The notes beneath the pieces were generated by a model. That model did no database searches and was not told the DNA's origin. It saw only the letters and a program-made list of their open reading frames with translations. Shown in pieces: positions 1-64,000 of a stretch of DNA of 64,000 nucleotides (position 1 is the stretch's first letter; every line of letters starts with the position of its first letter). A program made the position numbers and the translations under genes. Location of the stretch: positions 1 through 64,000 of IMG/VR virus record IMGVR_UViG_3300045988_180454, one strand, 5' to 3'. The stretch is from a virus.

Positions 1-62
1 TTTCGCCAGACAATTCTTGCATTTTATAAGAATCTCCTTAGAGAAGTAGTGAGTGGTGCCGA

Positions 63-1184: not shown

Positions 1185-1460
1185 CCTGGTCAGAGTAGGT
1201 TTTTGTTACTGCAAGTCCGCTACTAGGTTGCACGCAACCGCCGATTTTTGTGTCGTTTTTTGTGTTTTTGAGGTTTTTGTACATCTACAGTGACGAAAAT
1301 CGACGCAAAACAGCAGGTCAAAGCACATTTTTGAAAACCCTTGACACACATACATAACACAAAAACTTGGCAAACATGCAGGTCAGAGTAGGTTTTTAAA
1401 CGTTTTTATGTGTTTATGTGACGTAAATAGACATAAAACACCAGGTCAGGGGCTATTTTT
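1185..1460 (+). promoter_or_regulatory. four plus-oriented copies of the ~20-nt motif SCAGGTCAGAGTAGGTTTTT
   Basis: Copies read directly: 1185-1204 CCTGGTCAGAGTAGGTTTTT, 1313-1332 GCAGGTCAAAGCACATTTTT, 1378-1397 GCAGGTCAGAGTAGGTTTTT, 1441-1460 CCAGGTCAGGGGCTATTTTT. A weaker variant lies near 1062 (GATCAGAGAAGTTTTTTTT). TAGGTT fits the actinobacterial -10 pattern TANNNT. Confidence 0.55.
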
Positions 1461-1479
1461 GTGTGTTTTTATCGCTTTT

Positions 1480-1670
1480 TGGCCGGCTATAGCATCTAGA
1501 TGCTGATCTAGCCGCTAGCGCATAGCGGCTAGCACCCCCCCCGCTAGCCGGATTCTCTCTATATACAGCCCCTAGCAGCGCGCTAGGGGCGATTGAGCAG
1601 GCGTTTTAGGCTTATCCCTCCCTAGGGCGATTTTCTATGCCCTAGGCACCCGCTAGCCTAGGGGCGTTTC
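1480..1670. repeat. CTAG-core palindrome cluster (GCTAGC, CCTAGG, TCTAGA)
   Basis: About 11 CTAG tetramers in about 190 bp by eye. Includes the perfect 14-bp palindrome AGCATCTAGATGCT (1491-1504), GCCGCTA-N5-TAGCGGC and CCCCTAGC-N5-GCTAGGGG. Confidence 0.75.
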
Positions 1671-1896
1671 ATCACACTGACGATAAACAAAACGCCTTAG
1701 GGTAGCCTTGCCTTTGTTTTGGTCTGCTATTTACTAGGTGCCAAGTTGTTAGTGGGCATAGAGATATTAGGTCATGGAAAAGATTAGGGGGCACAAAAGG
1801 TTTTGAAGTATGAAAAGTTTGGGGTATCTCATTTTTTACCACTTGACAATTAGGTGGGTAAAATATCTTAGGCTGCATGTGTGAAGCCAAGGGGAA

Positions 1897-1922
1897 CCTA
1901 ACTAAGCCTTGCCTTAGTTAGG
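1897..1922. repeat. 10-bp inverted repeat CCTAACTAAG-N6-CTTAGTTAGG
   Basis: Arms at 1897-1906 and 1913-1922 are exact reverse complements. It is embedded in CCTTAG/AACCT word-rich DNA, and a second palindrome TAACCTT-G-AAGGTTA lies near 2041-2056. Confidence 0.7.
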
Positions 1923-2059
1923 ATAGCCTTAGTAAGGGCAAGCTTACTTGAGGGTCAACCTCAACCTTCAACCTCACCCTTAATGTTTGGGGGCAAAACC
2001 TTAAAGTTCGGGTTGAAACTGCACATATGCTACATTCAACGTAACCTTGAAGGTTAGGG

Positions 2060-5828: not shown

Positions 5829-6718
5829 ATGATGTTAACCCCCGTGACGGGTATTCTTTTGCGGATTTCCAGTATGAAGGGGAAAAGCTTATTGACCAGC
5901 GCAAGCGTTTTCCCATCACATCTCGCAAACTCAACCGTAAAGAGACAGAGAGAATCTGCAATGATTTATTCTCTCGCTACCATAAGTACGGTGTCTCTAA
6001 AGAAGACATCTCGCAGGTGATTTACTATGCCGAACACCCATGCGGAAACTTCTATCATGAAGGACGTATTACTTTTGGTACCGGAGTGAACATTCATGGA
6101 GGAGCGCTTTCTGGAGAAGGAATGCTCTCTAATGTTTCGATGCATCAGGCCACTATTAAGGAAAGACGAAGCTCCGAATCAAGCATCGTTTATTTCATCG
6201 CCAATTCAGATATCGGCTCTACGATGTTCTTTCTTGAACCAGGCTCAGTGATTATAGACTCTCATGTTGGCTGCTCAACTATTATAAATAGGAAAAATGC
6301 TATTCGCTTCGGCACATTAACCTTTGTAACATTAAAAGGTGATAATGAGATTAGCTCAAGCGATATTGAAAACTGTTTAATTGTAGACTCTGACATCCAT
6401 GCGTCCCGGGTTAAAGGTTTTAGTGAATCACTTATCATAGCGAATGCGGCTATTCGTTTTCAGAATGACGTTTTTGAAATCTGTCGATACCATTTAGAAA
6501 CAAAAAGGAAAGAAGGGGGACTTTTGTATCGGACAAAAGGCAAGGGGGTTGCCTTTTTTACCCCGGATTATGGGGTGAAAATTCTTGCAAATAAACATCG
6601 TACTTCAAAGATTACTTACTATATTGAGAAGTTATATGAAGGGAGCGCAAAAAAGCGAAATGAGTTAATTACTGGGGCACAAGACTTTATTGAAAAAGTG
6701 TTTGATGAGTCACAATGA
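5829..6718 (+). CDS. repeat-rich (beta-helix-like) protein whose full length needs a -1 shift at the C5 run 5839-5843; minimal uninterrupted ORF is 6017..6718
   Basis: The frame of 6017..6718 is open back to 5759 and reads protein-like (RDGYSFADFQYEGEKLIDQRKRF...SKEDISQVIYYAEHP). It has no ATG, GTG or TTG before 6017. The only strong start is ATG 5829 behind CAGAAAGGAAG, one frame away. The two frames meet at ACC CCC G. Confidence 0.5.
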
Positions 6719-6719
6719 C

Positions 6720-6748
6720 TTGCGAGGGGACATACACATACATATACT
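6720..6748 (+). promoter_or_regulatory. candidate sigma-A type promoter (TTGCGA-17-TATACT)
   Basis: -35 at 6720-6725 and -10 at 6743-6748. Followed by GGGGG and the short leader ATACAGAAAGGAAG before ATG 6771. Confidence 0.45.
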
Positions 6749-6770
6749 GGGGGATACAGAAAGGAAGTGA

Positions 6771-7112
6771 ATGATGACTGACTGGAAGTTCCCCCAGGCA
6801 GGCTATCATAGAGCACGTAAGCAATATGTTTGTTGTATGTGTGACTGTAATATTGAGCCTGGGGAGAGGTATTGTCGCATTGTTGATATTGACCGCGGGA
6901 AATATGTTGTCGATAGGTATTGTGCCCCATGCAATCTCGCTCTTGAGAACTACATTACAGATCATGAAATTACCGAAGATGATTTTCTCCCTGACGCATC
7001 AGAGCTGCATAGTTACCTAAGTGAAAATCTTGCAGGCAAGGATAAAATTTATCAAGATCTTTTGTCTAAGTGTCTTAATCGGCTCAGCAAGAAGCTGGGA
7101 TGGGATGAATAA
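6771..7112 (+). CDS. Cys-rich (zinc-ribbon-like) small protein
   Basis: Contains CCMCDC...YCRI...RYCAPC. ATG preceded by AAGGAAG. Confidence 0.65.
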   Translation: MMTDWKFPQAGYHRARKQYVCCMCDCNIEPGERYCRIVDIDRGKYVVDRYCAPCNLALENYITDHEITEDDFLPDASELHSYLSENLAGKDKIYQDLLSKCLNRLSKKLGWDE

Positions 7113-21644: not shown

Positions 21645-21673
21645 TTGTAAGATAAACATAACAATGTTATAAT
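21645..21673 (+). promoter_or_regulatory. candidate promoter (TTGTAA-17-TATAAT)
   Basis: -35 at 21645-21650 and -10 at 21668-21673, located upstream of the hairpin at 21682-21731. Confidence 0.4.
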
Positions 21674-32007: not shown

Positions 32008-32429
32008 TGCACCCCCTCGAAAAACCACACTTGGGAAATTGTTACATGTAAAGCAGCGATGAACATTGCCAACAACCCAACTCCAAAAAAGAAGTTATAG
32101 GAAAGAAACATTCCGCCAACACACCATAGTAACCCAAAGACACCCCAAACACCAGCGCTAACTATGTGAGCTAGATTGACTTTCTGAAGAATCTTAGCCC
32201 GCCATGTGAGATAAGCAGCACAGACTGGGAAAATAATATCCCAAATATCAATGCCAAAGAAGGAAGGCATGATGACAGGTATCGGACGAGGGATCGAAGT
32301 AAGCCCAATATGTGGATGAGCAGTCAAAAACATCAATCCGAAGCCCAACATCATAAACGCCAAGATGTAAGAACAGCGTTGAAGCGCAGCAATAGTTGAT
32401 TCTCCATGAAGGCCTTTTTGATTATCCAA
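32004..32429 (-). CDS. four-TM membrane protein
   Basis: 141 aa, almost entirely hydrophobic, with about 4 predicted spans by eye. Confidence 0.6.
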   Translation of the reverse strand: MDNQKGLHGESTIAALQRCSYILAFMMLGFGLMFLTAHPHIGLTSIPRPIPVIMPSFFGIDIWDIIFPVCAAYLTWRAKILQKVNLAHIVSAGVWGVFGLLWCVGGMFLSYNFFFGVGLLAMFIAALHVTISQVWFFEGVQ

Positions 32430-55582: not shown

Positions 55583-56875
55583 TTATTCAGCTAAGCGTTC
55601 AACGGATTCAACCCATTGATTTACCAGGTCTTTGAAATCGGGTGGGACAAAGCCCTCGCCTTTTACAAACTTCCCTGTTTCTGGGTCGGTTTTCCCACCT
55701 TTGAACTTGGTGCGGTTTGATTCGCAAACCCGTTCGAGTGCTGCTGAAAGATCGTAACCGGTATGGGTTTTCACCGCCAAGCCTAAAAGAGTGAAAAGAA
55801 CGTCGCCGAAGGCGTCGTAAAGATCGGTGAGCACTTTTTCTCGGTATTCTTGATCCAACGCAAACTTGGGCTTCGCCATGAGGTTTACCGCTGATTTGAG
55901 TTCGTCTACTTCTTCGAGGAAGAAGTTCAGTGCTGGACGAAGCAGTGCTTCCCGGTCGCCTTCTGCATTCAACAGGATTTTCATATGGTCTGAAATGCTT
56001 GGCGGGATTTGTCCAACCTGCATGTTCCAGTTGCTTACTTCGTTGACGAAACCATCAAAAGCCCAGTTTTGTGATTCCTTATAAGTAGTTGGCGCTTTGG
56101 GGTCTGTGCTTAAGCCTGCGTCTTCAAGAACCTTACCAAAAACCGCACGGTCAAGATTGTAAAGTTCTTCGGCAATAAGTGCGATTACTGACCGGAACTC
56201 CGCATCTACACCTGCATCAGAACGCTTCTGAATAATTTCTGACCAGGTTCGGAAGTTACCTGTAACCACAATTGATGTCGCGGTAGCATTTGGCAATACA
56301 CAGCGAGCTGCTTCCGCTGCTTGTTTTTTAGAAGCCTCCGGGTGATAGCGCATTACCATGTCGAAAAGCTTATTGTACAGGTCTACGCTTTCGTTGGCGA
56401 AGCACTCTAGCTTTGCTTCCATTGATGCTTTAGGTGAAAGCGGAGGATAACTACCGCTATGAGTGAGGGGGAGGTCTTGTAAAGCCGGGGGAAGCACCAT
56501 CTCTAACCCCTTATCTGGGGAAACAAAACGCTGAGACAGTACGCTAAACGACAAGTGGCGGTGGCGCGTAAGCTCTGCCAAGAATGACCGGCTTACACTT
56601 TCAAGAAGGAATGTTGCCGAAGCGTGTTCCATGATGGAGTAGTGGTGTTTTTCATGGATCGTCTTCTCTACGTACTTAGTCGGCGTGTTGGTTTCCTCAT
56701 TTGGACGATCCCAAGACTGGTAGCAGTTCCGTCCCGCAAACTCAATAAGACGGGTTGAATCTGGATCACCTGGTTCATGAGGAAGCACGTGTCCAAAATC
56801 GTAGTTGAACTCTGGATTTAGCCGGGTGAAGGCAAGTAATGTTACTTGCGGAGTCTGAGAGATTCGCACATTCAT
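55583..56875 (-). CDS. thyX: ThyX (flavin-dependent thymidylate synthase) fused to a MazG-like NTP pyrophosphohydrolase domain
   Basis: ThyX signature RHRHLSFSVLSQRF in the N-terminal ~260 aa. The C-terminal ~140 aa carries FFLEEVDELKSAV...LYDAFGDVLFTLLGLAV, a MazG-type EExxE/D helix pair. Confidence 0.8.
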   Translation of the reverse strand: MNVRISQTPQVTLLAFTRLNPEFNYDFGHVLPHEPGDPDSTRLIEFAGRNCYQSWDRPNEETNTPTKYVEKTIHEKHHYSIMEHASATFLLESVSRSFLAELTRHRHLSFSVLSQRFVSPDKGLEMVLPPALQDLPLTHSGSYPPLSPKASMEAKLECFANESVDLYNKLFDMVMRYHPEASKKQAAEAARCVLPNATATSIVVTGNFRTWSEIIQKRSDAGVDAEFRSVIALIAEELYNLDRAVFGKVLEDAGLSTDPKAPTTYKESQNWAFDGFVNEVSNWNMQVGQIPPSISDHMKILLNAEGDREALLRPALNFFLEEVDELKSAVNLMAKPKFALDQEYREKVLTDLYDAFGDVLFTLLGLAVKTHTGYDLSAALERVCESNRTKFKGGKTDPETGKFVKGEGFVPPDFKDLVNQWVESVERLAE

Positions 56876-59894: not shown

Positions 59895-60533
59895 CTATGC
59901 AGACTGCTTTGATTCTAGCATAGTGAGGAATTTTTCGGTGCGGTCACTGATGGTTGTTGCCATGTCCTCAACTTCGGCTTCTGAAGCACAAATGTCCACG
60001 TTGGCTACGTGAGTAATATCTGTGTAGCCTTGTGCCTCCAAAATCTTTTGAGTGTCTTTCACGGCTGCGCAAAAATCCCGACCAAACGTAAGGTTCCCGA
60101 CACCAATAATGAATTGGGGGGTGTCCCGCAAAATAAGTTTTTCTGCTTGCAAAAATTCTTTGAGTGGTTGGGGGATCATGTCGTCTTTCACCCGCCTTCC
60201 GATCGCTGGGTCGTCAACGAACCGTCCGTAGCTGGGAACCAACCACACCACAGAGGAATACATACGCTTTCCGCGGAACTGAGCTGCATCCATGTCGAGG
60301 GATGCGTATTGCTGTACAATTTCAAGCTTGATTCGATCCACCGCCTTGAGGTGTCCCCTTACGCCTTCTTTAAGGGCATTCGTGAGACAAATTCCTTCAA
60401 ACTTAGGAGCAGCCTTAGGGTTCCTTAGCCATAAAGTTTCCTTTAGCTTATCAAAGACTTTTTGAGTGTTACCGGAAAGACTGTAGGCAACAAGAAGATG
60501 GTTCATCCAAGGTTCAGGTTGGTTATTCGGCAT
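59895..60533 (-). CDS. nrdI: NrdI-like flavodoxin with an insertion
   Basis: LLVAYSLSGNTQKV, WLVPSYG and IIGVGNLTFGRDFCAA match NrdI landmarks (VYFSSxSxNT, IVPSYGGG, SGNRNFG). At 212 aa it is longer than the usual ~135 aa. Confidence 0.7.
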   Translation of the reverse strand: MPNNQPEPWMNHLLVAYSLSGNTQKVFDKLKETLWLRNPKAAPKFEGICLTNALKEGVRGHLKAVDRIKLEIVQQYASLDMDAAQFRGKRMYSSVVWLVPSYGRFVDDPAIGRRVKDDMIPQPLKEFLQAEKLILRDTPQFIIGVGNLTFGRDFCAAVKDTQKILEAQGYTDITHVANVDICASEAEVEDMATTISDRTEKFLTMLESKQSA

Positions 60534-60993
60534 CGAGGTTTTCCTTTTCAGTTACTAGTCCTAGTTTGAGTTTTTGAATCATTTCTTTTGCCAACTCCTG
60601 GTCTTCTTCGGATAGGGTGGTGATTCGCTCTTCCAGGTCCCGTACCGCGCGGAGGGAGTCGACGGTGATTCGGCTACAGGCAAAGGGGAAATGGTTGGTC
60701 TTAAACAACTCAATTAAAGCGTTTCCCGCTTCTAGGAATTGCCTTTTGTCTTCCGGGGTGAAAAGCAGCTCTGGTCCGTAGAGGGCCGGGACTAGAGCCT
60801 CACGGAGTTCTTCTGCATCAAAGACTTTTTCTAGAGGCAGAATGATTTGGATTTTGCCTGACTCAAGAAGTTTCTCCGCTAGTTCTTTTTTGACTCGTTT
60901 TACGGACTCTGGATTGGGGAACTCAAAAGTTTCTTGCCTGATTGCGGCGAGTAGCGCTAGGGAGTCTTCGTCTAGTTGGATTTCTAGCTTCAC
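60523..60993 (-). CDS. hypothetical protein (156 aa); first gene of the leftward arm
   Basis: GTG 60993 lies behind ACACAGAAAGGAAAA. A TATAAT (plus-strand ATTATA, 61031-61036) lies upstream. Confidence 0.65.
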   Translation of the reverse strand: MKLEIQLDEDSLALLAAIRQETFEFPNPESVKRVKKELAEKLLESGKIQIILPLEKVFDAEELREALVPALYGPELLFTPEDKRQFLEAGNALIELFKTNHFPFACSRITVDSLRAVRDLEERITTLSEEDQELAKEMIQKLKLGLVTEKENLDAE

Positions 60994-61162
60994 GTATTTT
61001 CCTTTCTGTGTCGTGACTCAATTATATATGACAGGGGAGGGGTTCAAGGTTTTGAGTCAAGATATCTTTGTCACACGTTAAAGCAAAACAAAAACAAAAA
61101 AAATTATGCAGAAAAACTTGAGTTAAGTGAGTTTTTGAGTTAACGGTGTTCAAAACATATCT

Positions 61163-61903
61163 TGACCTGCATAAATACCTAACTCAAATTCAAATCAAAA
61201 GTTGAGTTAGGGTTTTGAGTCAGAAAAAGTTGAGTTGGAGACGTTTAAACACAAAGAAACTCAAAAATTTACCCAAAAAAGTTGAGTTGAGTTGAGTTTT
61301 TGAGTTAAGTCAATGAAACCCACTCTGACCTGCACAAACCCGTAACTCAACTTTAACTCAAAAACTGAGTTGAGTTGAGTTAGGCGAAAAACTGAGTTGA
61401 AATTTAAAGCAAAATAAATCGAAAAATTTGTACAAAAAAGTTGAGTTACTTGAGTTAATTTGAGTTTACCCTATTTGACCTGCGGAAATGCTGACTCAAA
61501 TTCCAACTCAAGTTTTGAGTTGAGTTTTGAGTTGAGGATTGTCCGGGTTTCAGACTTCGGTTGAGCCGCCGGTGAGGCAAGGAAGAGACCGCAACCCACC
61601 GATTATGGCGCTGAAACAGGGTCTCAACTCAAATTCTGACTCAGTTTTCGCAAAAACAGCAAGACTCTGACCTGCATAAATACGTAACTCAAATTCTAAC
61701 TCAAAAAGTTGAGTTGGCCTTTTCGCTGGTCAGGATAGGTTTTTAGGGGCTAACTCAAAAACTCAACTTTTTTGTCGATATTTTATAACTAATAACGCTT
61801 TAACGCTTATTAGTTGTGCACAGCTGTATTTTCTCTATACGCATTATTTTACAATTTAAATTGAGTTATTGAGTTAGAGTAGTGAAAAGGGTATCTGACC
61901 TGG
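61163..61903 (-). promoter_or_regulatory. five minus-oriented copies of the GCAGGTCA motif (plus two plus-oriented copies)
   Basis: TGACCTGC/G on the plus strand at 61163-61170, 61326-61333, 61476-61483, 61668-61675 and 61896-61903. Plus-oriented CTGGTCAGGATAGGTTTTT at 61726-61744 and CCAGGTCAGAAT at 61943-61954. Confidence 0.55.
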
Positions 61904-62045
61904 TAAAACAGTAACTCAATTTCAACTCAACTTTTTATTTTCCCAGGTCAGAATTTGAGTTGAAACTGAGTTAGCAGTTCAGAGGGTATTTTTGAAACAC
62001 GAAAAACCGGGATTTCGGGTTTCCAACTCAAAAAGTTGAGTTAGG

Positions 62046-62095
62046 CAGAAAAAGACGCCTTGACTAAAAAACCGAAAGCGGCTGGTTCAAGGCGT
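62046..62095 (-). terminator. terminator after terS
   Basis: ACGCCTTGA (62055-62063) pairs with TCAAGGCGT (62087-62095). A CTTTTTCTG run follows on the minus strand. The loop is 23 nt and contains a sub-hairpin. Confidence 0.55.
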
Positions 62096-62119
62096 GTGCT
62101 CAAATTTGAGCGGCTGATT

Positions 62120-62644
62120 TTAAGAATATTGGTTGTACAGATTCTGCTGTTGCTTCTCCCACTCCTGAGCGAAAGTGCGGTCATTCGTAGCCGCGGCTCG
62201 GAGTTGTTCGCTGCGCTGCACCGCGGTGTTCCCTTGAGCGATAGTCCAGCGGAGCTTGACACGCGCCTCAGGCGTGAGTCCGAATTGTTTAATGCCGTCC
62301 ATCCAAAGCTTTTGGAATCGTGCTCGGTCGGCGGCCTTGTACATTGGGTTCAAGGATTCCTGGAGGTCTCCAGCGAGAATCACGAGGGTGTGATAGTCTG
62401 CGGCTGTCCATTCGCTCACCATCGGCGAGGTCCAGATCTCTTCCCACCAGCGGAGGACTACCGGGGACCATTTCGTCTCCTCGGCACCGATAAGATCGGC
62501 GGGAAAACCCACGACTTCGCTAGCAGGCGGAAGCTCTGGTAAGCTAGCTAGCAGCTCTTCTCGCGGCCTTTGTGCTAGCATGGTGGTAGCGGCCTTGGCA
62601 CCCTTTTTTGACGGGCCTCCGGGCTTCCTGGGGGGTCCTGGCAT
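62120..62644 (-). CDS. terS: terminase small subunit (P27 family-like)
   Basis: 174 aa with a basic N-terminus. FGLTPEARVKL and a preceding W/Y-rich helical region resemble phage P27-type small terminases. Confidence 0.65.
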   Translation of the reverse strand: MPGPPRKPGGPSKKGAKAATTMLAQRPREELLASLPELPPASEVVGFPADLIGAEETKWSPVVLRWWEEIWTSPMVSEWTAADYHTLVILAGDLQESLNPMYKAADRARFQKLWMDGIKQFGLTPEARVKLRWTIAQGNTAVQRSEQLRAAATNDRTFAQEWEKQQQNLYNQYS

Positions 62645-63718
62645 AGCGATATGGTCCTTTCCTTAGCTGAGCAGGGTCATCAAGGACATTTTACCCCAAT
62701 CCCTCGCAGAGCGAAATGTGCAGCACGCGCCCGGCTCGGCCCCAGATAGGGGGAGGGGGTACCCCTGGGTGAGGTAGAACGGGGGTAATTTGTGGGGGTA
62801 GTCGCTTTGTTTCCCCTGGTGAGTCGCAATATATATACCGCAAATTGGGCATGGGTGGGGGTATATAAGTGGGTTTCTCTGGTTGCATGGGGTTGTCTGA
62901 CCACCTGTTTTTACCGGAAAAACCCGGTTTTTTGCTTGTTTTATCAGTTTCTCTTAAGTCTTGCATGGATTTTGCATGCTATAGGTCAATCTTTTTACGG
63001 TCTATAGCATCAACTAAAAGTTTGATTGTAGCAATAGGTGTGGGTGGTTTTCCCTATCAAGGCCATTTCTTAGGGTAGGCTATGCTCACGTACGGGTGCA
63101 CGCAATCGGTATGGCAATTGAACTATAGGATTGTCCATAGGTGCCGATAGGCATACCGCATCAAAGGGATTGCCTATGTGTGCCTATCCACCATATAGGC
63201 AAGTGTATATAAAGCCGAATATAATAATTCGCAATCGTTTATATAGGCCATGCCTCAATATACCCGGCTAGGGGCTATCCGGGTGGTGCCTACCCCCTAG
63301 GCATGCCATGCAGCATGCCTAGCAGCCATGTGCTAGCGCTATGCCATGGCCTGCTGATCTAGGCCACTCAAAAGCGTATGGCCTAGCAGCCTCATAGACG
63401 CACGAACTCAAAGCCATATAGCCGATCATACCAGCGAGATATAAAGCCGCTGTATCGAGCTGCTAGGCTATCTATATCACATATCCCCTGGTGAGTAGAT
63501 AGTGATATGTGGTGTGGTGCCAGTGGATACCCCTATGATAGCAATGGTACTAATAGGCTATATGTGTGGTGTACTATCAGTATGCCATATGGCATATCCC
63601 TAGGCATGCCAAAACCCTACCTATAGTAGGTACCTATATAGATACCCCTATAGATAGGGTTGGTATATGGATACCCCCTATAGCAGGGGGCATAGAGTAT
63701 GCCTATACGATAGATAGG
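62645..63718. repeat. 1.07-kb ORF-free block of G-runs and ATAGGC / CATGCC / CTAGG / CTATAG words
   Basis: G5 runs at 62745-62895. ATAGGC/GCCTAT at least 9 times between 63070 and 63710. GCATGCC/CTAGC words at 63290-63400. TCCCCTGGTGAGT at 62811 and 63484. Confidence 0.8.
62908..62935 (+). terminator. weak plus-strand hairpin + T-run inside the repeat block
   Basis: ACCGG-AAAAAC-CCGGT followed by TTTTTTGC. The stem is only 5 bp. Confidence 0.3.
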
Positions 63719-64000
63719 TCAGTGGTAGTCAAACATGTGTTCGATACGGTCGATAAGCAGGGGGCTACCGGAATCGGTCAACCAAAAGTTTTTGGCACGG
63801 AAATATTGGTAAAAATCTACCCAGTTTTCCCACCAAAATAATTCGTCTAAAGGCACCCGGTGGGCGTCGTGGTGGATATCAAAGCCGGTTTTGGGGCGAT
63901 AGCCAAATACGTGTTTTTGTGCCATACCACCGGCTAAAAAGCGATTTTGATTGTGGTTATGGCTGACCCACCAAGTGACGCGACCAAAATCCGGGTGGAT
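63719..64000 (-). CDS. hypothetical protein, 5' end outside the window
   Basis: The frame of ORF 63719..63925 stays open to position 64000 (IHPDFGRVTWWVSHNHNQNRFLAGGMAQKH...). Confidence 0.55.
   Translation of the reverse strand: MHPDFGRVTWWVSHNHNQNRFLAGGMAQKHVFGYRPKTGFDIHHDAHRVPLDELFWWENWVDFYQYFRAKNFWLTDSGSPLLIDRIEHMFDYH

What the first reader, a model, noticed from the sequence alone, without database searches (positions are those of the whole stretch)
61081..62045. Five-module TGAGTT/AACTCA word array between terS and the leftward arm
About 960 bp has no credible ORF.

Each of five modules (150-230 bp apart) has the same grammar:
- two to four TTGAGTT copies
- about 20 nt of spacer
- TGACCTGC (cores at 61163, 61326, 61476, 61668, 61896)
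- a 10-nt RNAAAYNCNT spacer
- AACTCAA-N4/5-AACTCA
- N4, then one to three more TTGAGTT copies

The words form nested inverted repeats, for example AACTCAA-AAAG-TTGAGTT at 61700 and 62025. Every module can therefore fold as a multi-hairpin.

This density and regularity exceed anything I would expect from ordinary phage promoter or terminator regions. Candidate roles:
- an expanded cosB/pac-like TerS recognition array, since it abuts the isolated terS
- an iteron origin
- tandem promoter-plus-hairpin units producing a family of small RNAs
Basis: seen in the sequence. Interest (0 to 1): 0.8.

Follow-up and report, generated by a model that had tools for sequence, protein, structure and literature searches.

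The report
Cos-box and heptamer array after terS
A 1-kb non-coding stretch of a Corynebacterium phage holds eight copies of a 19-bp box that hundreds of actinobacteriophages carry about 60 bp from their cohesive end, each flanked by a phage-specific 7-bp word, which points to a protein-DNA assembly site whose binding proteins and role are still unknown.

Summary
TTGAGTT/AACTCAA occurs 58 times in the window against 12.8 expected, and 34 copies lie within 925 bp. The five TGACCTG cores sit at the stated coordinates. Twelve independent assemblies of related phages keep the array, so it is not an artefact.

It is part of a roughly 19-bp box, GCRTWWCCG-CAGGTCAGAG. This box lies 48-69 bp from the right cohesive end in many mycobacterium, Gordonia and Streptomyces phages (637 INPHARED records match). 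It also flanks attP cores and occurs beside iteron-like repeats on actinobacterial plasmids.

The heptamer is lineage-specific: relatives use TTGCTCA, CTCTCAG or TGTAGTA around the same box. It is also under selection, with 11% variable columns against 27% elsewhere.

My best reading is a DNA-level nucleoprotein array. A common factor, probably host-encoded, binds the boxes and a phage protein binds the words, as in lambda cosB or P1 parS. The most likely role is control of the left-arm early operon. A cosB-like packaging role and an origin remain live. Small-RNA genes are unsupported. The function cannot be settled in silico.

The parts
61014..62045 (.). The whole non-coding array: about 42 heptamer words and 8 boxes, lying between the terS terminator and the promoter of the next gene.
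   Evidence: It is conserved in 12 distinct relatives.
61160..61178 (-). Box M1 (ggtatttatg-CAGGTCAAGA), pointing with the leftward genes.
   Evidence: The core is mutated to CAGATCA in some relatives.
61323..61341 (-). Box M2 (gggtttgtg-CAGGTCAGAG).
   Evidence: It matches CWGGTCAGRG exactly.
61473..61491 (-). Box M3 (GCATTTCCG-CAGGTCAAAT). Its upstream half is identical to the pan-actinophage consensus.
61665..61683 (-). Box M4 (cgtatttatg-CAGGTCAGAG).
61893..61911 (-). Box M5 (ctgttttac-CAGGTCAGAT).
61717..61735 (+). Box R1 (ccttttcg-CTGGTCAGGA), in the opposite orientation, pointing toward the terS 3' end.
   Evidence: It is conserved in relatives.
61935..61953 (+). Box R2 (ttattttcc-CAGGTCAGAA), in the opposite orientation.
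61966..61984 (+). Box R3. It is degenerate here (CAGTTCAGAG) but reads CAGGTCAGAG in most relatives.
61762..61881 (.). Nearly invariant AT-rich block, closed by inverted word pairs (61750-61767 and 61858-61877) and holding an inner 9-bp inverted repeat, AACTAATAA/TTATTAGTT.
   Evidence: Only 3-10% of its columns vary, against about 27% in the rest of the array. RNA fold z-scores are -5.2 on the - strand and -2.9 on the + strand.
61540..61625 (.). GC-rich, hypervariable insert between modules 3 and 4.
   Evidence: 45-50% of its columns vary. No fold is conserved across the variants.
61021..61029 (-). Canonical -10 element (ATATATAAT), 28 nt upstream of the GTG at 60993, bracketed by the word variants TGAGTCA (61014-61020) and TGACTCA (61053-61060).
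62046..62096 (-). Terminator-like hairpin after terS: stem ACGCCTTGA/TCAAGGCGT followed by TTTTT on the - strand. It isolates terS from the array.
   Evidence: Read directly from the sequence. The scan reports only the inner hairpin (62070-62083), not this outer stem.
62120..62644 (-). Terminase small subunit gene, the first gene of the virion DNA.
   Evidence: Pfam Terminase_7, E = 7.7e-14. It is syntenic with gene 1 of Darwin, P1201, Foxboro and Llama.
62710..62735 (.). Inferred cohesive-end cut region. The left end of the virion DNA starts near 62722, where the - strand reads TGCACATTTCGC...
   Evidence: Contig L172 starts exactly there. An adapter-bearing contig (L161) starts at the homologous base. 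The Darwin and P1201 ends align to it.
62762..62827 (+). Two variant boxes, CCCCTGGGTGAGGTAG and TTTCCCCTGGTGAGTCGC, lying 40-105 nt from the cut. This is the position of the box in other actinophages.
1186..1451 (+). Second cluster of four boxes, at 1186, 1314, 1379 and 1442, pointing into the rightward replication-gene arm. They are flanked by different words (TTTTTGTGT).
60523..60993 (-). First gene downstream of the array. It encodes an acidic 156-aa protein with no family match.
   Evidence: pI 4.7. It is not homologous to the first post-array gene in the other lineages compared.

Best explanation
What it is (shown). The region is a non-coding array built from two kinds of short DNA site.
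- Eight copies of a roughly 19-bp asymmetric box, GCRTWWCCG-CAGGTCAGAG. Five point with the leftward genes and three point the other way. The box is not special to this phage. It sits about 60 bp from the cohesive end in many actinobacteriophages, flanks attP cores, and lies beside iteron-like repeats on actinobacterial plasmids.
- About 42 copies of the heptamer TTGAGTT/AACTCAA, which bracket each box. The heptamer is specific to this phage lineage and is under purifying selection.

How it most likely works (inferred). A factor shared by all those elements binds the boxes. The most plausible candidate is a host architectural or RNA-polymerase-associated protein. A phage-encoded protein binds the heptamers on both sides of each box. 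Together they fold the DNA into a multi-unit nucleoprotein complex. This is the logic of the IHF site between the R sites of lambda cosB, or between the box A/B repeats of P1 parS.

The role I commit to (about 0.4 of the total). The array is the control hub at the head of the left-arm early operon. It corresponds to the divergent intergenic hubs of Darwin, P1201 and L160. In this reading the boxes are oriented, promoter-proximal elements and the heptamers are operators.
For: The box is a shared element.
- A logo from 37 sites in 7 relatives and a logo from 247 sites in IMG/VR give the same consensus.
- The tandem-box pattern found 99 viral loci. My own back-of-envelope estimate, which rests on a guessed size for the collection, was only a handful by chance.
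- 637 INPHARED records match a two-box query. Forty-nine of the 60 sampled rows lie 39-267 nt from the right end.
- In the eight phage right ends read base by base, the box nearest the end lies at -48 to -69.
- It lies between HNH and terS in prophage-like contigs.
- It flanks the Adephagia attP core and lies about 50 nt from phiC31 attP.
- It lies next to an integrase, and in par/rep regions with iteron-like words, on plasmids.

The binder is not tied to one TerS family. Boxes occur next to Terminase_4, Terminase_6, Terminase_7 and unclassified small subunits.

The words are lineage-specific around the same box. Relatives use TTGCTCA(C) in L160, CTCTCAG in Foxboro, TGTAGTA in Darwin and GTGAGTTA in P1201. 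The TTGAGTT-plus-box grammar is found only in close relatives.

The words are constrained. 26 of 230 word columns vary against 229 of 841 others, Fisher P = 1.3e-7.

Evidence for a role linked to transcription in this family.
- By my hand tally of the sites, 33 of 38 boxes point with the flanking genes. The binomial P is 4e-6.
- Boxes are arranged back to back in Darwin and P1201.
- The array lies between the terS terminator and a canonical -10 element that is itself bracketed by words.
Against: - No binding protein is identified, and no DNA-binding domain was found in the neighbouring or early ORFs tested.
- The modules contain no sigma-A type promoter.
- A TAnnnT element follows the box in fewer than half of the sites.
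- Three boxes in the array point toward terS, where there is no gene.
- In the broad HNH-box-terS set the box mostly points against the flanking genes, 37 against 18. So a simple 'promoter' reading does not generalise.
- The known mycobacterial and Streptomyces IHF-like proteins are reported to bind without sequence specificity (my recollection, not tested here). If that is so, the host factor would have to be something else.
- The near-invariance of 61762-61881 is not explained by this model.
Confidence: 0.45

Rival explanations
1. An expanded cosB-like packaging array. TerS binds the heptamers and the box provides the bend, as IHF does between R3 and R2 of lambda cosB. The array would mark the end that is packaged first and deliver terminase to cosN by looping.
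For: - The main habitat of the box is the cos region, at a fixed distance from the cut.
- The array lies on the side that would be packaged first (by analogy with lambda), directly after terS.
- A non-coding gap with repeats after terS recurs in L163, L166, Foxboro and P1201.
- The N-terminal 55 residues of TerS do not align with the Darwin protein, which fits lineage-specific words.
- The R-I-R-like grammar of each module is visible.
Against: - The nearest word is about 680 bp from the cut, and there are no words in the 78 bp between the cut and terS.
- Darwin and L160 have no gap after terS. Their box-and-word arrays lie 3.6-5.5 kb away, beside another gene.
- Darwin has a separate word array next to cos, about 45 copies of CTTAGTTAG, and the window has its own (62800-63700). 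These are better candidates for terminase sites.
- A second box cluster uses different words.
Confidence: 0.25
2. An origin of replication. The heptamers are iterons for a phage initiator, for example the Prim-Pol/D5-type primase-helicase. The boxes are host-factor sites. The invariant AT-rich block, closed by inverted words, is the unwinding element. The cluster at 1186-1451 could be a second cis site, like ori and crr of P4.
For: - The phage encodes its own replisome, including a D5-like primase-helicase.
- Inverted word pairs flank a 120-bp AT-rich block.
- AT-rich stretches lie between the boxes in P1201 and beside them in L160.
- On plasmids the box lies beside iteron-like repeats in par/rep regions.
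- Module number varies between relatives, as is known for iteron arrays.
Against: - The array is far from the replication genes.
- Seven-bp words at irregular spacings (5-12 bp) are unlike classical 17-22 bp iterons.
- An unwinding element needs AT richness, not near-identity of sequence.
- GC skew gives no signal that is independent of gene direction.
Confidence: 0.2
3. Tandem genes for small RNAs. Each module would be a promoter plus hairpins giving a 100-200 nt transcript.
For: - Word inverted repeats give hairpins, some followed by T runs.
- The block 61745-61895 folds with z = -5.2 on the - strand.
- A + strand unit running from box R2/R3 to the terminator-like palindrome at 62097-62112 can be imagined.
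Against: - There is no sigma-A promoter in the modules, although perfect TGnTATAAT promoters exist elsewhere in the genome.
- There is no Rfam hit.
- The stems are made of identical words, so no covariation is available. The segments that do vary show no conserved fold.
- The same box works in cos, attP and plasmid contexts, where RNA genes are not expected.
Confidence: 0.06
4. A decoy for a host regulator. TTGAGT is the half-site of the HspR operator (HAIR, CTTGAGT-N7-ACTCAAG). Many copies on replicating phage DNA could titrate HspR and de-repress chaperone genes.
For: The word equals the HAIR half-site (the HAIR consensus is from my own knowledge). The host is a Corynebacterium, a genus that has HspR.
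Against: - No TTGAGT-N5-9-ACTCAA pair exists in the array. All inverted pairs are everted, with 4-nt spacers.
- The preferred base before the word is G or T, not C.
- Relatives use unrelated words in the same grammar.
Confidence: 0.04

Closest known systems
Lambda cosB (R3-I1-R2-R1, beside cosN and the Nu1 gene)
   Same: Short phage-specific repeats in both orientations flank a site for a shared DNA-bending factor. The element is next to the small terminase gene and near the cohesive end. In other actinophages the box itself lies at a fixed distance from the cut site.
   Different: - The array lies downstream of terS, 0.6-1.7 kb from the cut, and has eight units rather than one.
- Neither binding protein is identified.
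- The box also occurs at attP and on plasmids.
- In relatives the equivalent arrays are kilobases from cos.
P1 parS and iteron origins with an IHF site (pSC101, R6K gamma); heptad arrays bound by omega of pSM19035
   Same: Six- to seven-bp repeats in direct and inverted orientation are arranged around, or next to, a host-factor site. On Streptomyces plasmids the box lies in a parAB/prim-pol intergenic region among iteron-like words.
   Different: No ParA, ParB, Rep or ribbon-helix-helix gene was found in the window among the ORFs tested. The phage looks lytic. Word spacing is irregular.
phiC31 early promoters with conserved inverted repeats (CIR operators)
   Same: An actinophage-specific conserved motif recurs in intergenic regions, with nearby inverted repeats that serve as operators (role recalled from the literature). 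Both elements are visible in the phiC31 sequence.
   Different: The sequences are unrelated (CCGGGTTGCCGAC... and CCTACTCACGTGAGTAGG). phiC31 has only one copy of the present box, beside attP.
Stoperators of Cluster A mycobacteriophages and Cluster CA Rhodococcus phages
   Same: These are asymmetric 13-14 bp sites that lie in intergenic DNA and are oriented relative to transcription (PMC13313380).
   Different: Stoperators are scattered through the genome, are specific to a cluster and are bound by that phage's repressor. The present box is clustered near the genome ends and is shared across many clusters and host genera.
SPP1 pac (repeated short boxes bound by the small terminase G1P)
   Same: An array of short boxes recognised by a terminase small subunit, next to its gene (from my own knowledge).
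   Different: SPP1 is a headful (pac) phage. The window phage has cohesive ends and an HNH-terminase pair.

Membership tests
Actinophage cos-proximal box (defined here) | Match to GCRTWWCCG-CAGGTCAGAG. | tested here: met
   Eight copies lie in the array, and M3 matches the upstream half exactly.
Actinophage cos-proximal box (defined here) | Location 48-69 bp from the cohesive-end cut, next to a C-run/G-run palindrome. | tested here: not met
   The array copies lie 0.6-1.6 kb from the inferred cut at about 62722. Only variant copies (62762-62777 and 62810-62827) sit at the canonical place.
Lambda-type cosB (terminase small-subunit binding region) | Lies directly between cosN and the terS start, within about 200 bp of the cut. 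| tested here: not met
   The cut-to-terS interval is 78 bp and holds no words and no perfect box. The array lies after the terS stop codon.
Lambda-type cosB (terminase small-subunit binding region) | The repeats are bound by the small terminase subunit. | not testable with these tools
   This needs EMSA or footprinting with the 62120..62644 protein.
Lambda-type cosB (terminase small-subunit binding region) | Phage-specific repeats flank a host-factor bending site. | tested here: inconclusive
   The grammar fits. That the box is a host-factor site is inferred only from its distribution.
Iteron-type replication origin | Direct repeats of one word next to an AT-rich segment. | tested here: met
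   There are 42 words, and an AT-rich block at 61762-61881.
Iteron-type replication origin | Adjacent to or inside the initiator gene, with repeats of 17-22 bp in helical phase. | tested here: not met
   The replication genes lie at 13-29 kb of the window. The words are 7 bp long at spacings of 5-12 bp.
Iteron-type replication origin | Replication starts there. | not testable with these tools
   This needs marker-frequency analysis or 2D gels.
Sigma-A (sigma-70 type) promoter | A -35/-10 pair, or an extended -10 (TGnTAnnnT), at proper spacing. | tested here: not met
   The scan found none in 60800-62800. TAnnnT follows the box in fewer than half of 37 sites. For comparison, perfect TGnTATAAT lies at 21665, 55509, 58079 and 58391, and TATATAAT at 61021-61029.
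Known RNA families or tRNA | A match to an Rfam covariance model or a tRNA model. | tested here: not met
HspR operator (HAIR) | Inverted repeat CTTGAGT-N7-ACTCAAG. | tested here: not met
   There are no TTGAGT-N5-9-ACTCAA pairs. Only everted pairs with 4-nt spacers exist.
Zierdtviridae-like Corynebacterium phage (genome context) | Synteny from terS through flavodoxin, ThyX, MazG and HNH to TerL and portal, with TerL similarity. | tested here: met
   TerL is 58.6% identical to that of Darwin. Gene order matches. A CRISPR spacer links the phage to a Corynebacterium.

The most novel reading that the evidence does not exclude
The 19-bp box is the recognition site of an as yet unidentified sequence-specific architectural protein of Actinobacteria, a functional counterpart of IHF. 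Phages would use it at cos, temperate phages at attP, and plasmids at par/rep sites. The window array would be an eightfold amplification of that site, interleaved with sites for a phage protein. If so, one factor would link packaging, integration and plasmid maintenance in this phylum, and the array would be a ready-made high-affinity bait for finding it.
Probability: 0.3. Interest if true: 0.8.

Novelty: new variant of a known kind. Interest (0 to 1): 0.6.

Why it matters
If the reading holds, three things follow.

1. A single short box marks the cohesive-end region of a large share of sequenced actinobacteriophages, spanning several clusters and at least seven host genera. I found no description of it in the open-access literature searched. 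Its fixed distance from the cut makes the cos recognition problem in these phages directly testable in Mycobacterium smegmatis, where phage engineering is routine.

2. The same box at attP cores and at plasmid par/rep sites points to a shared, probably host-encoded, factor. No sequence-specific equivalent of IHF is known to me in Actinobacteria.

3. The window array, with eight boxes and about 42 lineage-specific words, is a natural amplified version. It could serve as bait to identify both binding proteins. It would also show how a generic architectural site and a phage-specific site are combined into modules that expand and contract by unequal recombination.

Tried and rejected
- **Similarity and model searches.** Rfam at gathering and at E-value thresholds, and ARAGORN, gave nothing. 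BLASTN of the region against INPHARED gave no match.
- **Pattern scans that gave only chance hits.** An exact 16-mer of the core found 31 single chance hits in IMG/VR and, tellingly, none of the close relatives. A 14-base gapped pattern was swamped by chance hits.
- **Sigma-A promoter reading of the core, in either orientation.** Rejected because no -10 lies at a fixed distance.
- **SigF/SigB, ECF and sigma-54-like readings.** I considered these from memory of the consensus sequences. None fits the spacing or the host.
- **Identity with the phiC31 early promoter.** Rejected after reading the phiC31 intergenic regions.
- **HspR/HAIR decoy.** The geometry fails.
- **Chi-like end-protection sites.** Box orientation relative to the nearest genome end is not consistent between the window phage, Darwin, P1201 and Foxboro.
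- **A regulator encoded next to the array.** The first downstream gene is acidic and is unrelated between lineages. Thirty ORFs of the rightward arm gave no DNA-binding domain.
- **The Darwin gp06 / P1201 gp12 family.** This leftward gene lies next to the arrays in relatives, but it has no homologue in the window.
- **Covariation in the variable inserts.** There is no conserved fold.
- **More distant phages with the same word-and-box grammar.** The search found only the close relatives.
- **Gene calls in high-GC contigs.** I made these with a simple rule based on GC at the third codon position, so the orientation counts from that set are approximate.
Full report
**1. The observation**

The stretch 61000-62100 has 36% G+C against 46% for the window. 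It has no ORF above 43 aa, no tRNA and no Rfam match.

TTGAGTT occurs 58 times on both strands of the window. Shuffles give 12.8 +/- 3.4. Thirty-four exact copies lie in 61118-62042, where about 0.19 are expected. Allowing one mismatch gives 42.

- Three further cores lie on the other strand, at 61726, 61944 and 61975.
- Word variants reach down to 61014.
- There are two non-repetitive inserts.

**2. Genome context**

The window is a tailed phage. TerL is 58.6% identical to that of Corynebacterium phages Darwin, Zion and C3PO (Ceetrepovirus, Zierdtviridae). Gene order is shared with them: terS, a small gene, flavodoxin, then ThyX, MazG, HNH, TerL and portal.

A metagenome contig joins a CRISPR array to the right end of the phage through a matching spacer. 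The same repeat occurs 12 times in a Corynebacterium MAG, so the host is a Corynebacterium.

The phage encodes its own DnaE-type polymerase, a Prim-Pol/D5 primase-helicase and a ribonucleotide reductase.

In Darwin, P1201, Foxboro and Llama, terS is gene 1, about 100-300 bp from the physical left end. Contig L172 starts at the base that corresponds to window 22 nt past 62700, namely 62722. An adapter-bearing contig starts at the homologous base, and the Darwin and P1201 ends align there. The cut is therefore near 62722, which is 78 bp upstream of the terS start. The array lies 0.6-1.7 kb inside the left end.

By my reading of the sequence, terS is followed by a good hairpin with a T run on its own strand at 62046-62096 (the scan reports only the inner hairpin at 62070-62083). 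The next gene (GTG at 60993) has a canonical -10, ATATATAAT, 28 nt upstream. That element is bracketed by the word variants TGACTCA and TGAGTCA.

**3. Close relatives**

Thirteen contigs from IMG/VR and from ENA/JGI metagenomes carry terS at 96-100% amino-acid identity. They give 12 distinct array sequences at 88-92% identity to the window. This rules out an assembly artefact.

Word columns vary in 26 of 230 cases against 229 of 841 for other columns, Fisher P = 1.3e-7. Core columns vary in 9 of 49.

Two contigs lack exactly one module, with different breakpoints: L002 lacks 61125-61289 and L175 lacks 61203-61365. Copy number therefore changes by unequal recombination.

Block 61762-61881 is almost invariant (3-10% variable columns). 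Segments 61562-61681 and 62002-62041 are hypervariable, with no conserved fold.

**4. The core is a family-wide box and the words are lineage-specific**

Read on the strand of the leftward genes, each core is CAGGTCAGAG preceded by a T-rich stretch and CG. The same box recurs at window 1186, 1314, 1379 and 1442, upstream of the rightward replication arm, with other flanking words.

It recurs in relatives whose TerS is only 29-45% identical:

| Phage or locus | Box positions | Flanking word |
|---|---|---|
| Darwin | 3609-, 3684-, 3842+, 3929+, 65666+, 66940+ | TGTAGTA |
| P1201 | 98+, 5652-, 5682-, 5722-, 5776+, 5970+, 6070+ | GTGAGTTA |
| L160 | six sites at 4.6-5.5 kb | TTGCTCA(C) |
| L163, L166 | in the 1-kb gap after terS | none obvious |
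| Foxboro | 31+, 916- | CTCTCAG |

The TTGAGTT-plus-box grammar occurs only in the close relatives. By my hand tally of these sites, 33 of 38 boxes point with the flanking genes (P = 4e-6). Darwin and P1201 show a back-to-back arrangement at a divergent gene junction.

**5. The box far beyond this family**

A scan of IMG/VR for two boxes 18-48 bp apart returned 99 loci. My rough estimate of the chance expectation was only a few. Most of these loci have 60-72% G+C.

A logo from 247 sites gives GC(A/G)T(T/A)(T/A)CCG-CAGGTCAGAG-G..T. Window box M3 (gcatttccgCAGGTCA) matches the upstream half exactly.

The sites are intergenic. In a sample of ten loci, the flanking genes are an HNH endonuclease (its stop next to the boxes) and a small or large terminase (its start next to them), and many contigs end 10-70 nt from the boxes.

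A 50-nt two-box query found 637 INPHARED records: 544 Mycobacterium, 37 Gordonia, 35 Streptomyces and 6 Corynebacterium phages, plus a few from other host genera. Forty-nine of the 60 rows sampled across the ranking lie 39-267 nt from the right physical end.

Reading the ends base by base gives these positions for the copy nearest the end:

| Phage | Position from right end | Orientation on top strand |
|---|---|---|
| Winky, Enceladus, Dubu | -67 | CAGGTCAGAG |
| Llama | -59 | reverse |
| Gaia (four copies) | -61 | reverse |
| Malithi | -63 | reverse |
| Annalisa | -69 | reverse |
| Bernal13 | -48 | reverse |

In most of these ends the box lies next to a C-run/G-run palindrome. The window phage has variant boxes at the same place, CCCCTGGGTGAGGTAG at 62762-62777 and TTTCCCCTGGTGAGTCGC at 62810-62827.

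**6. The box is not confined to cos**

- In Adephagia, two copies flank the attP core, which is the 3' end of tmRNA.
- phiC31 has one copy, about 50 nt from attP.
- On Arthrobacter FB24 plasmid 2 it lies 73 nt from an integrase gene.
- On a Streptomyces linear plasmid it lies in the parAB/prim-pol intergenic region, among repeated words.
- On pGBA1 it lies next to CGTGCCTTA repeats.
- The small terminase genes next to boxes belong to Terminase_4, Terminase_6, Terminase_7 and unclassified families.

From this distribution I infer that the box is bound by something common to all these elements. A host protein is the simplest candidate. This step is inference; nothing here shows binding.

**7. 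Promoter reading**

The genome has perfect extended -10 promoters (TGnTATAAT) pointing with genes at 21665, 55509, 58079 and 58391. The modules have none. A TAnnnT follows the box in fewer than half of 37 sites.

In the broad HNH-box-terS set the box mostly points against both genes (37 against 18). That count rests on a crude gene caller. So the box is not a plain sigma-A promoter, and its orientation rule differs between phage groups. Within the window's own family, however, orientation does follow gene direction.

**8. Synthesis**

Shown:
- The array is real, conserved and non-coding.
- It is made of a pan-actinophage box plus a selected, lineage-specific heptamer.
- Modules are gained and lost.
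- The usual home of the box is the cos region, and it also occurs at attP and on plasmids.

Inferred:
- The box is a docking or bending site for a shared factor.
- The heptamers are sites for a phage protein.
- Together they form a looped complex, like the I1/R sites of lambda cosB or IHF with box A/B in P1 parS.

For the role, I rank the options as follows.
- Control of the left-arm early operon, about 0.4. The support is its position between a terminator and a promoter bracketed by words, its homology of position and grammar with the divergent hubs of Darwin, P1201 and L160, and box orientation within the family.
- A cosB-like packaging function, about 0.25.
- An origin, about 0.2. The AT-rich invariant block closed by inverted words folds with z = -5.2 and -2.9.
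- Small-RNA genes and an HspR decoy are unlikely. No HAIR-type pairs exist.

**9. Literature**

Full-text searches for the motif string, for the phage family names and for mycobacteriophage cos sequences found no description of the box. This covers only the open-access library searched, so it does not prove novelty.

Noticed in passing
window 62800-63700: About 900 bp of non-coding DNA next to the right cohesive end, dense in CTATAGG/CCTATAG-type words and short palindromes. It is a second, different word array.
   Followed up: partly
window 1186-1480: Four boxes 63-128 bp apart, pointing into the replication-gene arm. They are interleaved with TTTTTGTGT/ACACAAAAA words and with repeats of GTGACG-N9-GAC.
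   Followed up: partly
window 1480-1700: A run of GCTAGC/CTAGCGG palindromic words in non-coding DNA. Its meaning is unknown.
   Followed up: no
window 1890-1960; L168 (Darwin) record positions 67100-67650; L280 (Winky) and L284 (Enceladus) right ends: The word CCTTAGTTAGG/CCTAACTAAG in the window is the same word that Darwin repeats about 45 times within 600 bp of its right end. Related CCTAAG/GCTAAGG words crowd the right ends of Winky and Enceladus around their boxes. This may be a second widespread end-associated word.
   Followed up: partly
window 21665 (+), 55509 (-), 58079 (-), 58391 (-), 61021-61029 (-): Near-perfect extended -10 promoters (TGnTATAAT, or TATATAAT), all pointing with the genes. 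They lie upstream of the DNA polymerase, HNH/TerL, Ant and the first gene after the array. This is a promoter class distinct from the box.
   Followed up: partly
L171 1-115; L177: A CRISPR array (repeat GGAACTACCTCCGCATGCGCGGAGAAT) is assembled directly onto the phage's right-end non-coding DNA through a spacer that matches window about 62990-63025. The repeat occurs 12 times in a Corynebacterium sp. MAG. This gives the host genus.
   Followed up: yes
window 1-45 and 63998-64000; L004 2898-4644: In relatives the two ends of the window are joined by about 1.7 kb that the window lacks. So the genome is roughly 65-66 kb and the window is not the whole phage.
   Followed up: partly
window 55583-56875 (-): ThyX thymidylate synthase fused to a MazG-like pyrophosphohydrolase in a single 430-aa ORF. 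These are separate genes in Darwin and P1201.
   Followed up: no
L169 (P1201) 6310-7090 and 1440-1550: Seven tandem copies of a 109-bp unit, annotated as three 4.8-kDa ORFs, lie downstream of the P1201 boxes. About 14 copies of CAAGACAG lie just upstream of gp5. A similar ACAGCAAGAC precedes window box M4, and CCAGCAAAC recurs upstream of the cos boxes of several mycobacteriophages.
   Followed up: no
L282 (Adephagia) record positions about 32300-32420: The attP core (the 3' end of tmRNA) is flanked by two boxes. The second box forms the stem of a terminator-like hairpin with an inverted partial copy.
   Followed up: partly
L176 (Foxboro) 1304-1729: The first gene after the post-terS gap in Foxboro encodes a basic protein (pI 10.1) with an RGRP AT-hook-like motif. 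In L166 the first genes carry Bro-N domains. So the gene next to the array differs in every lineage.
   Followed up: no
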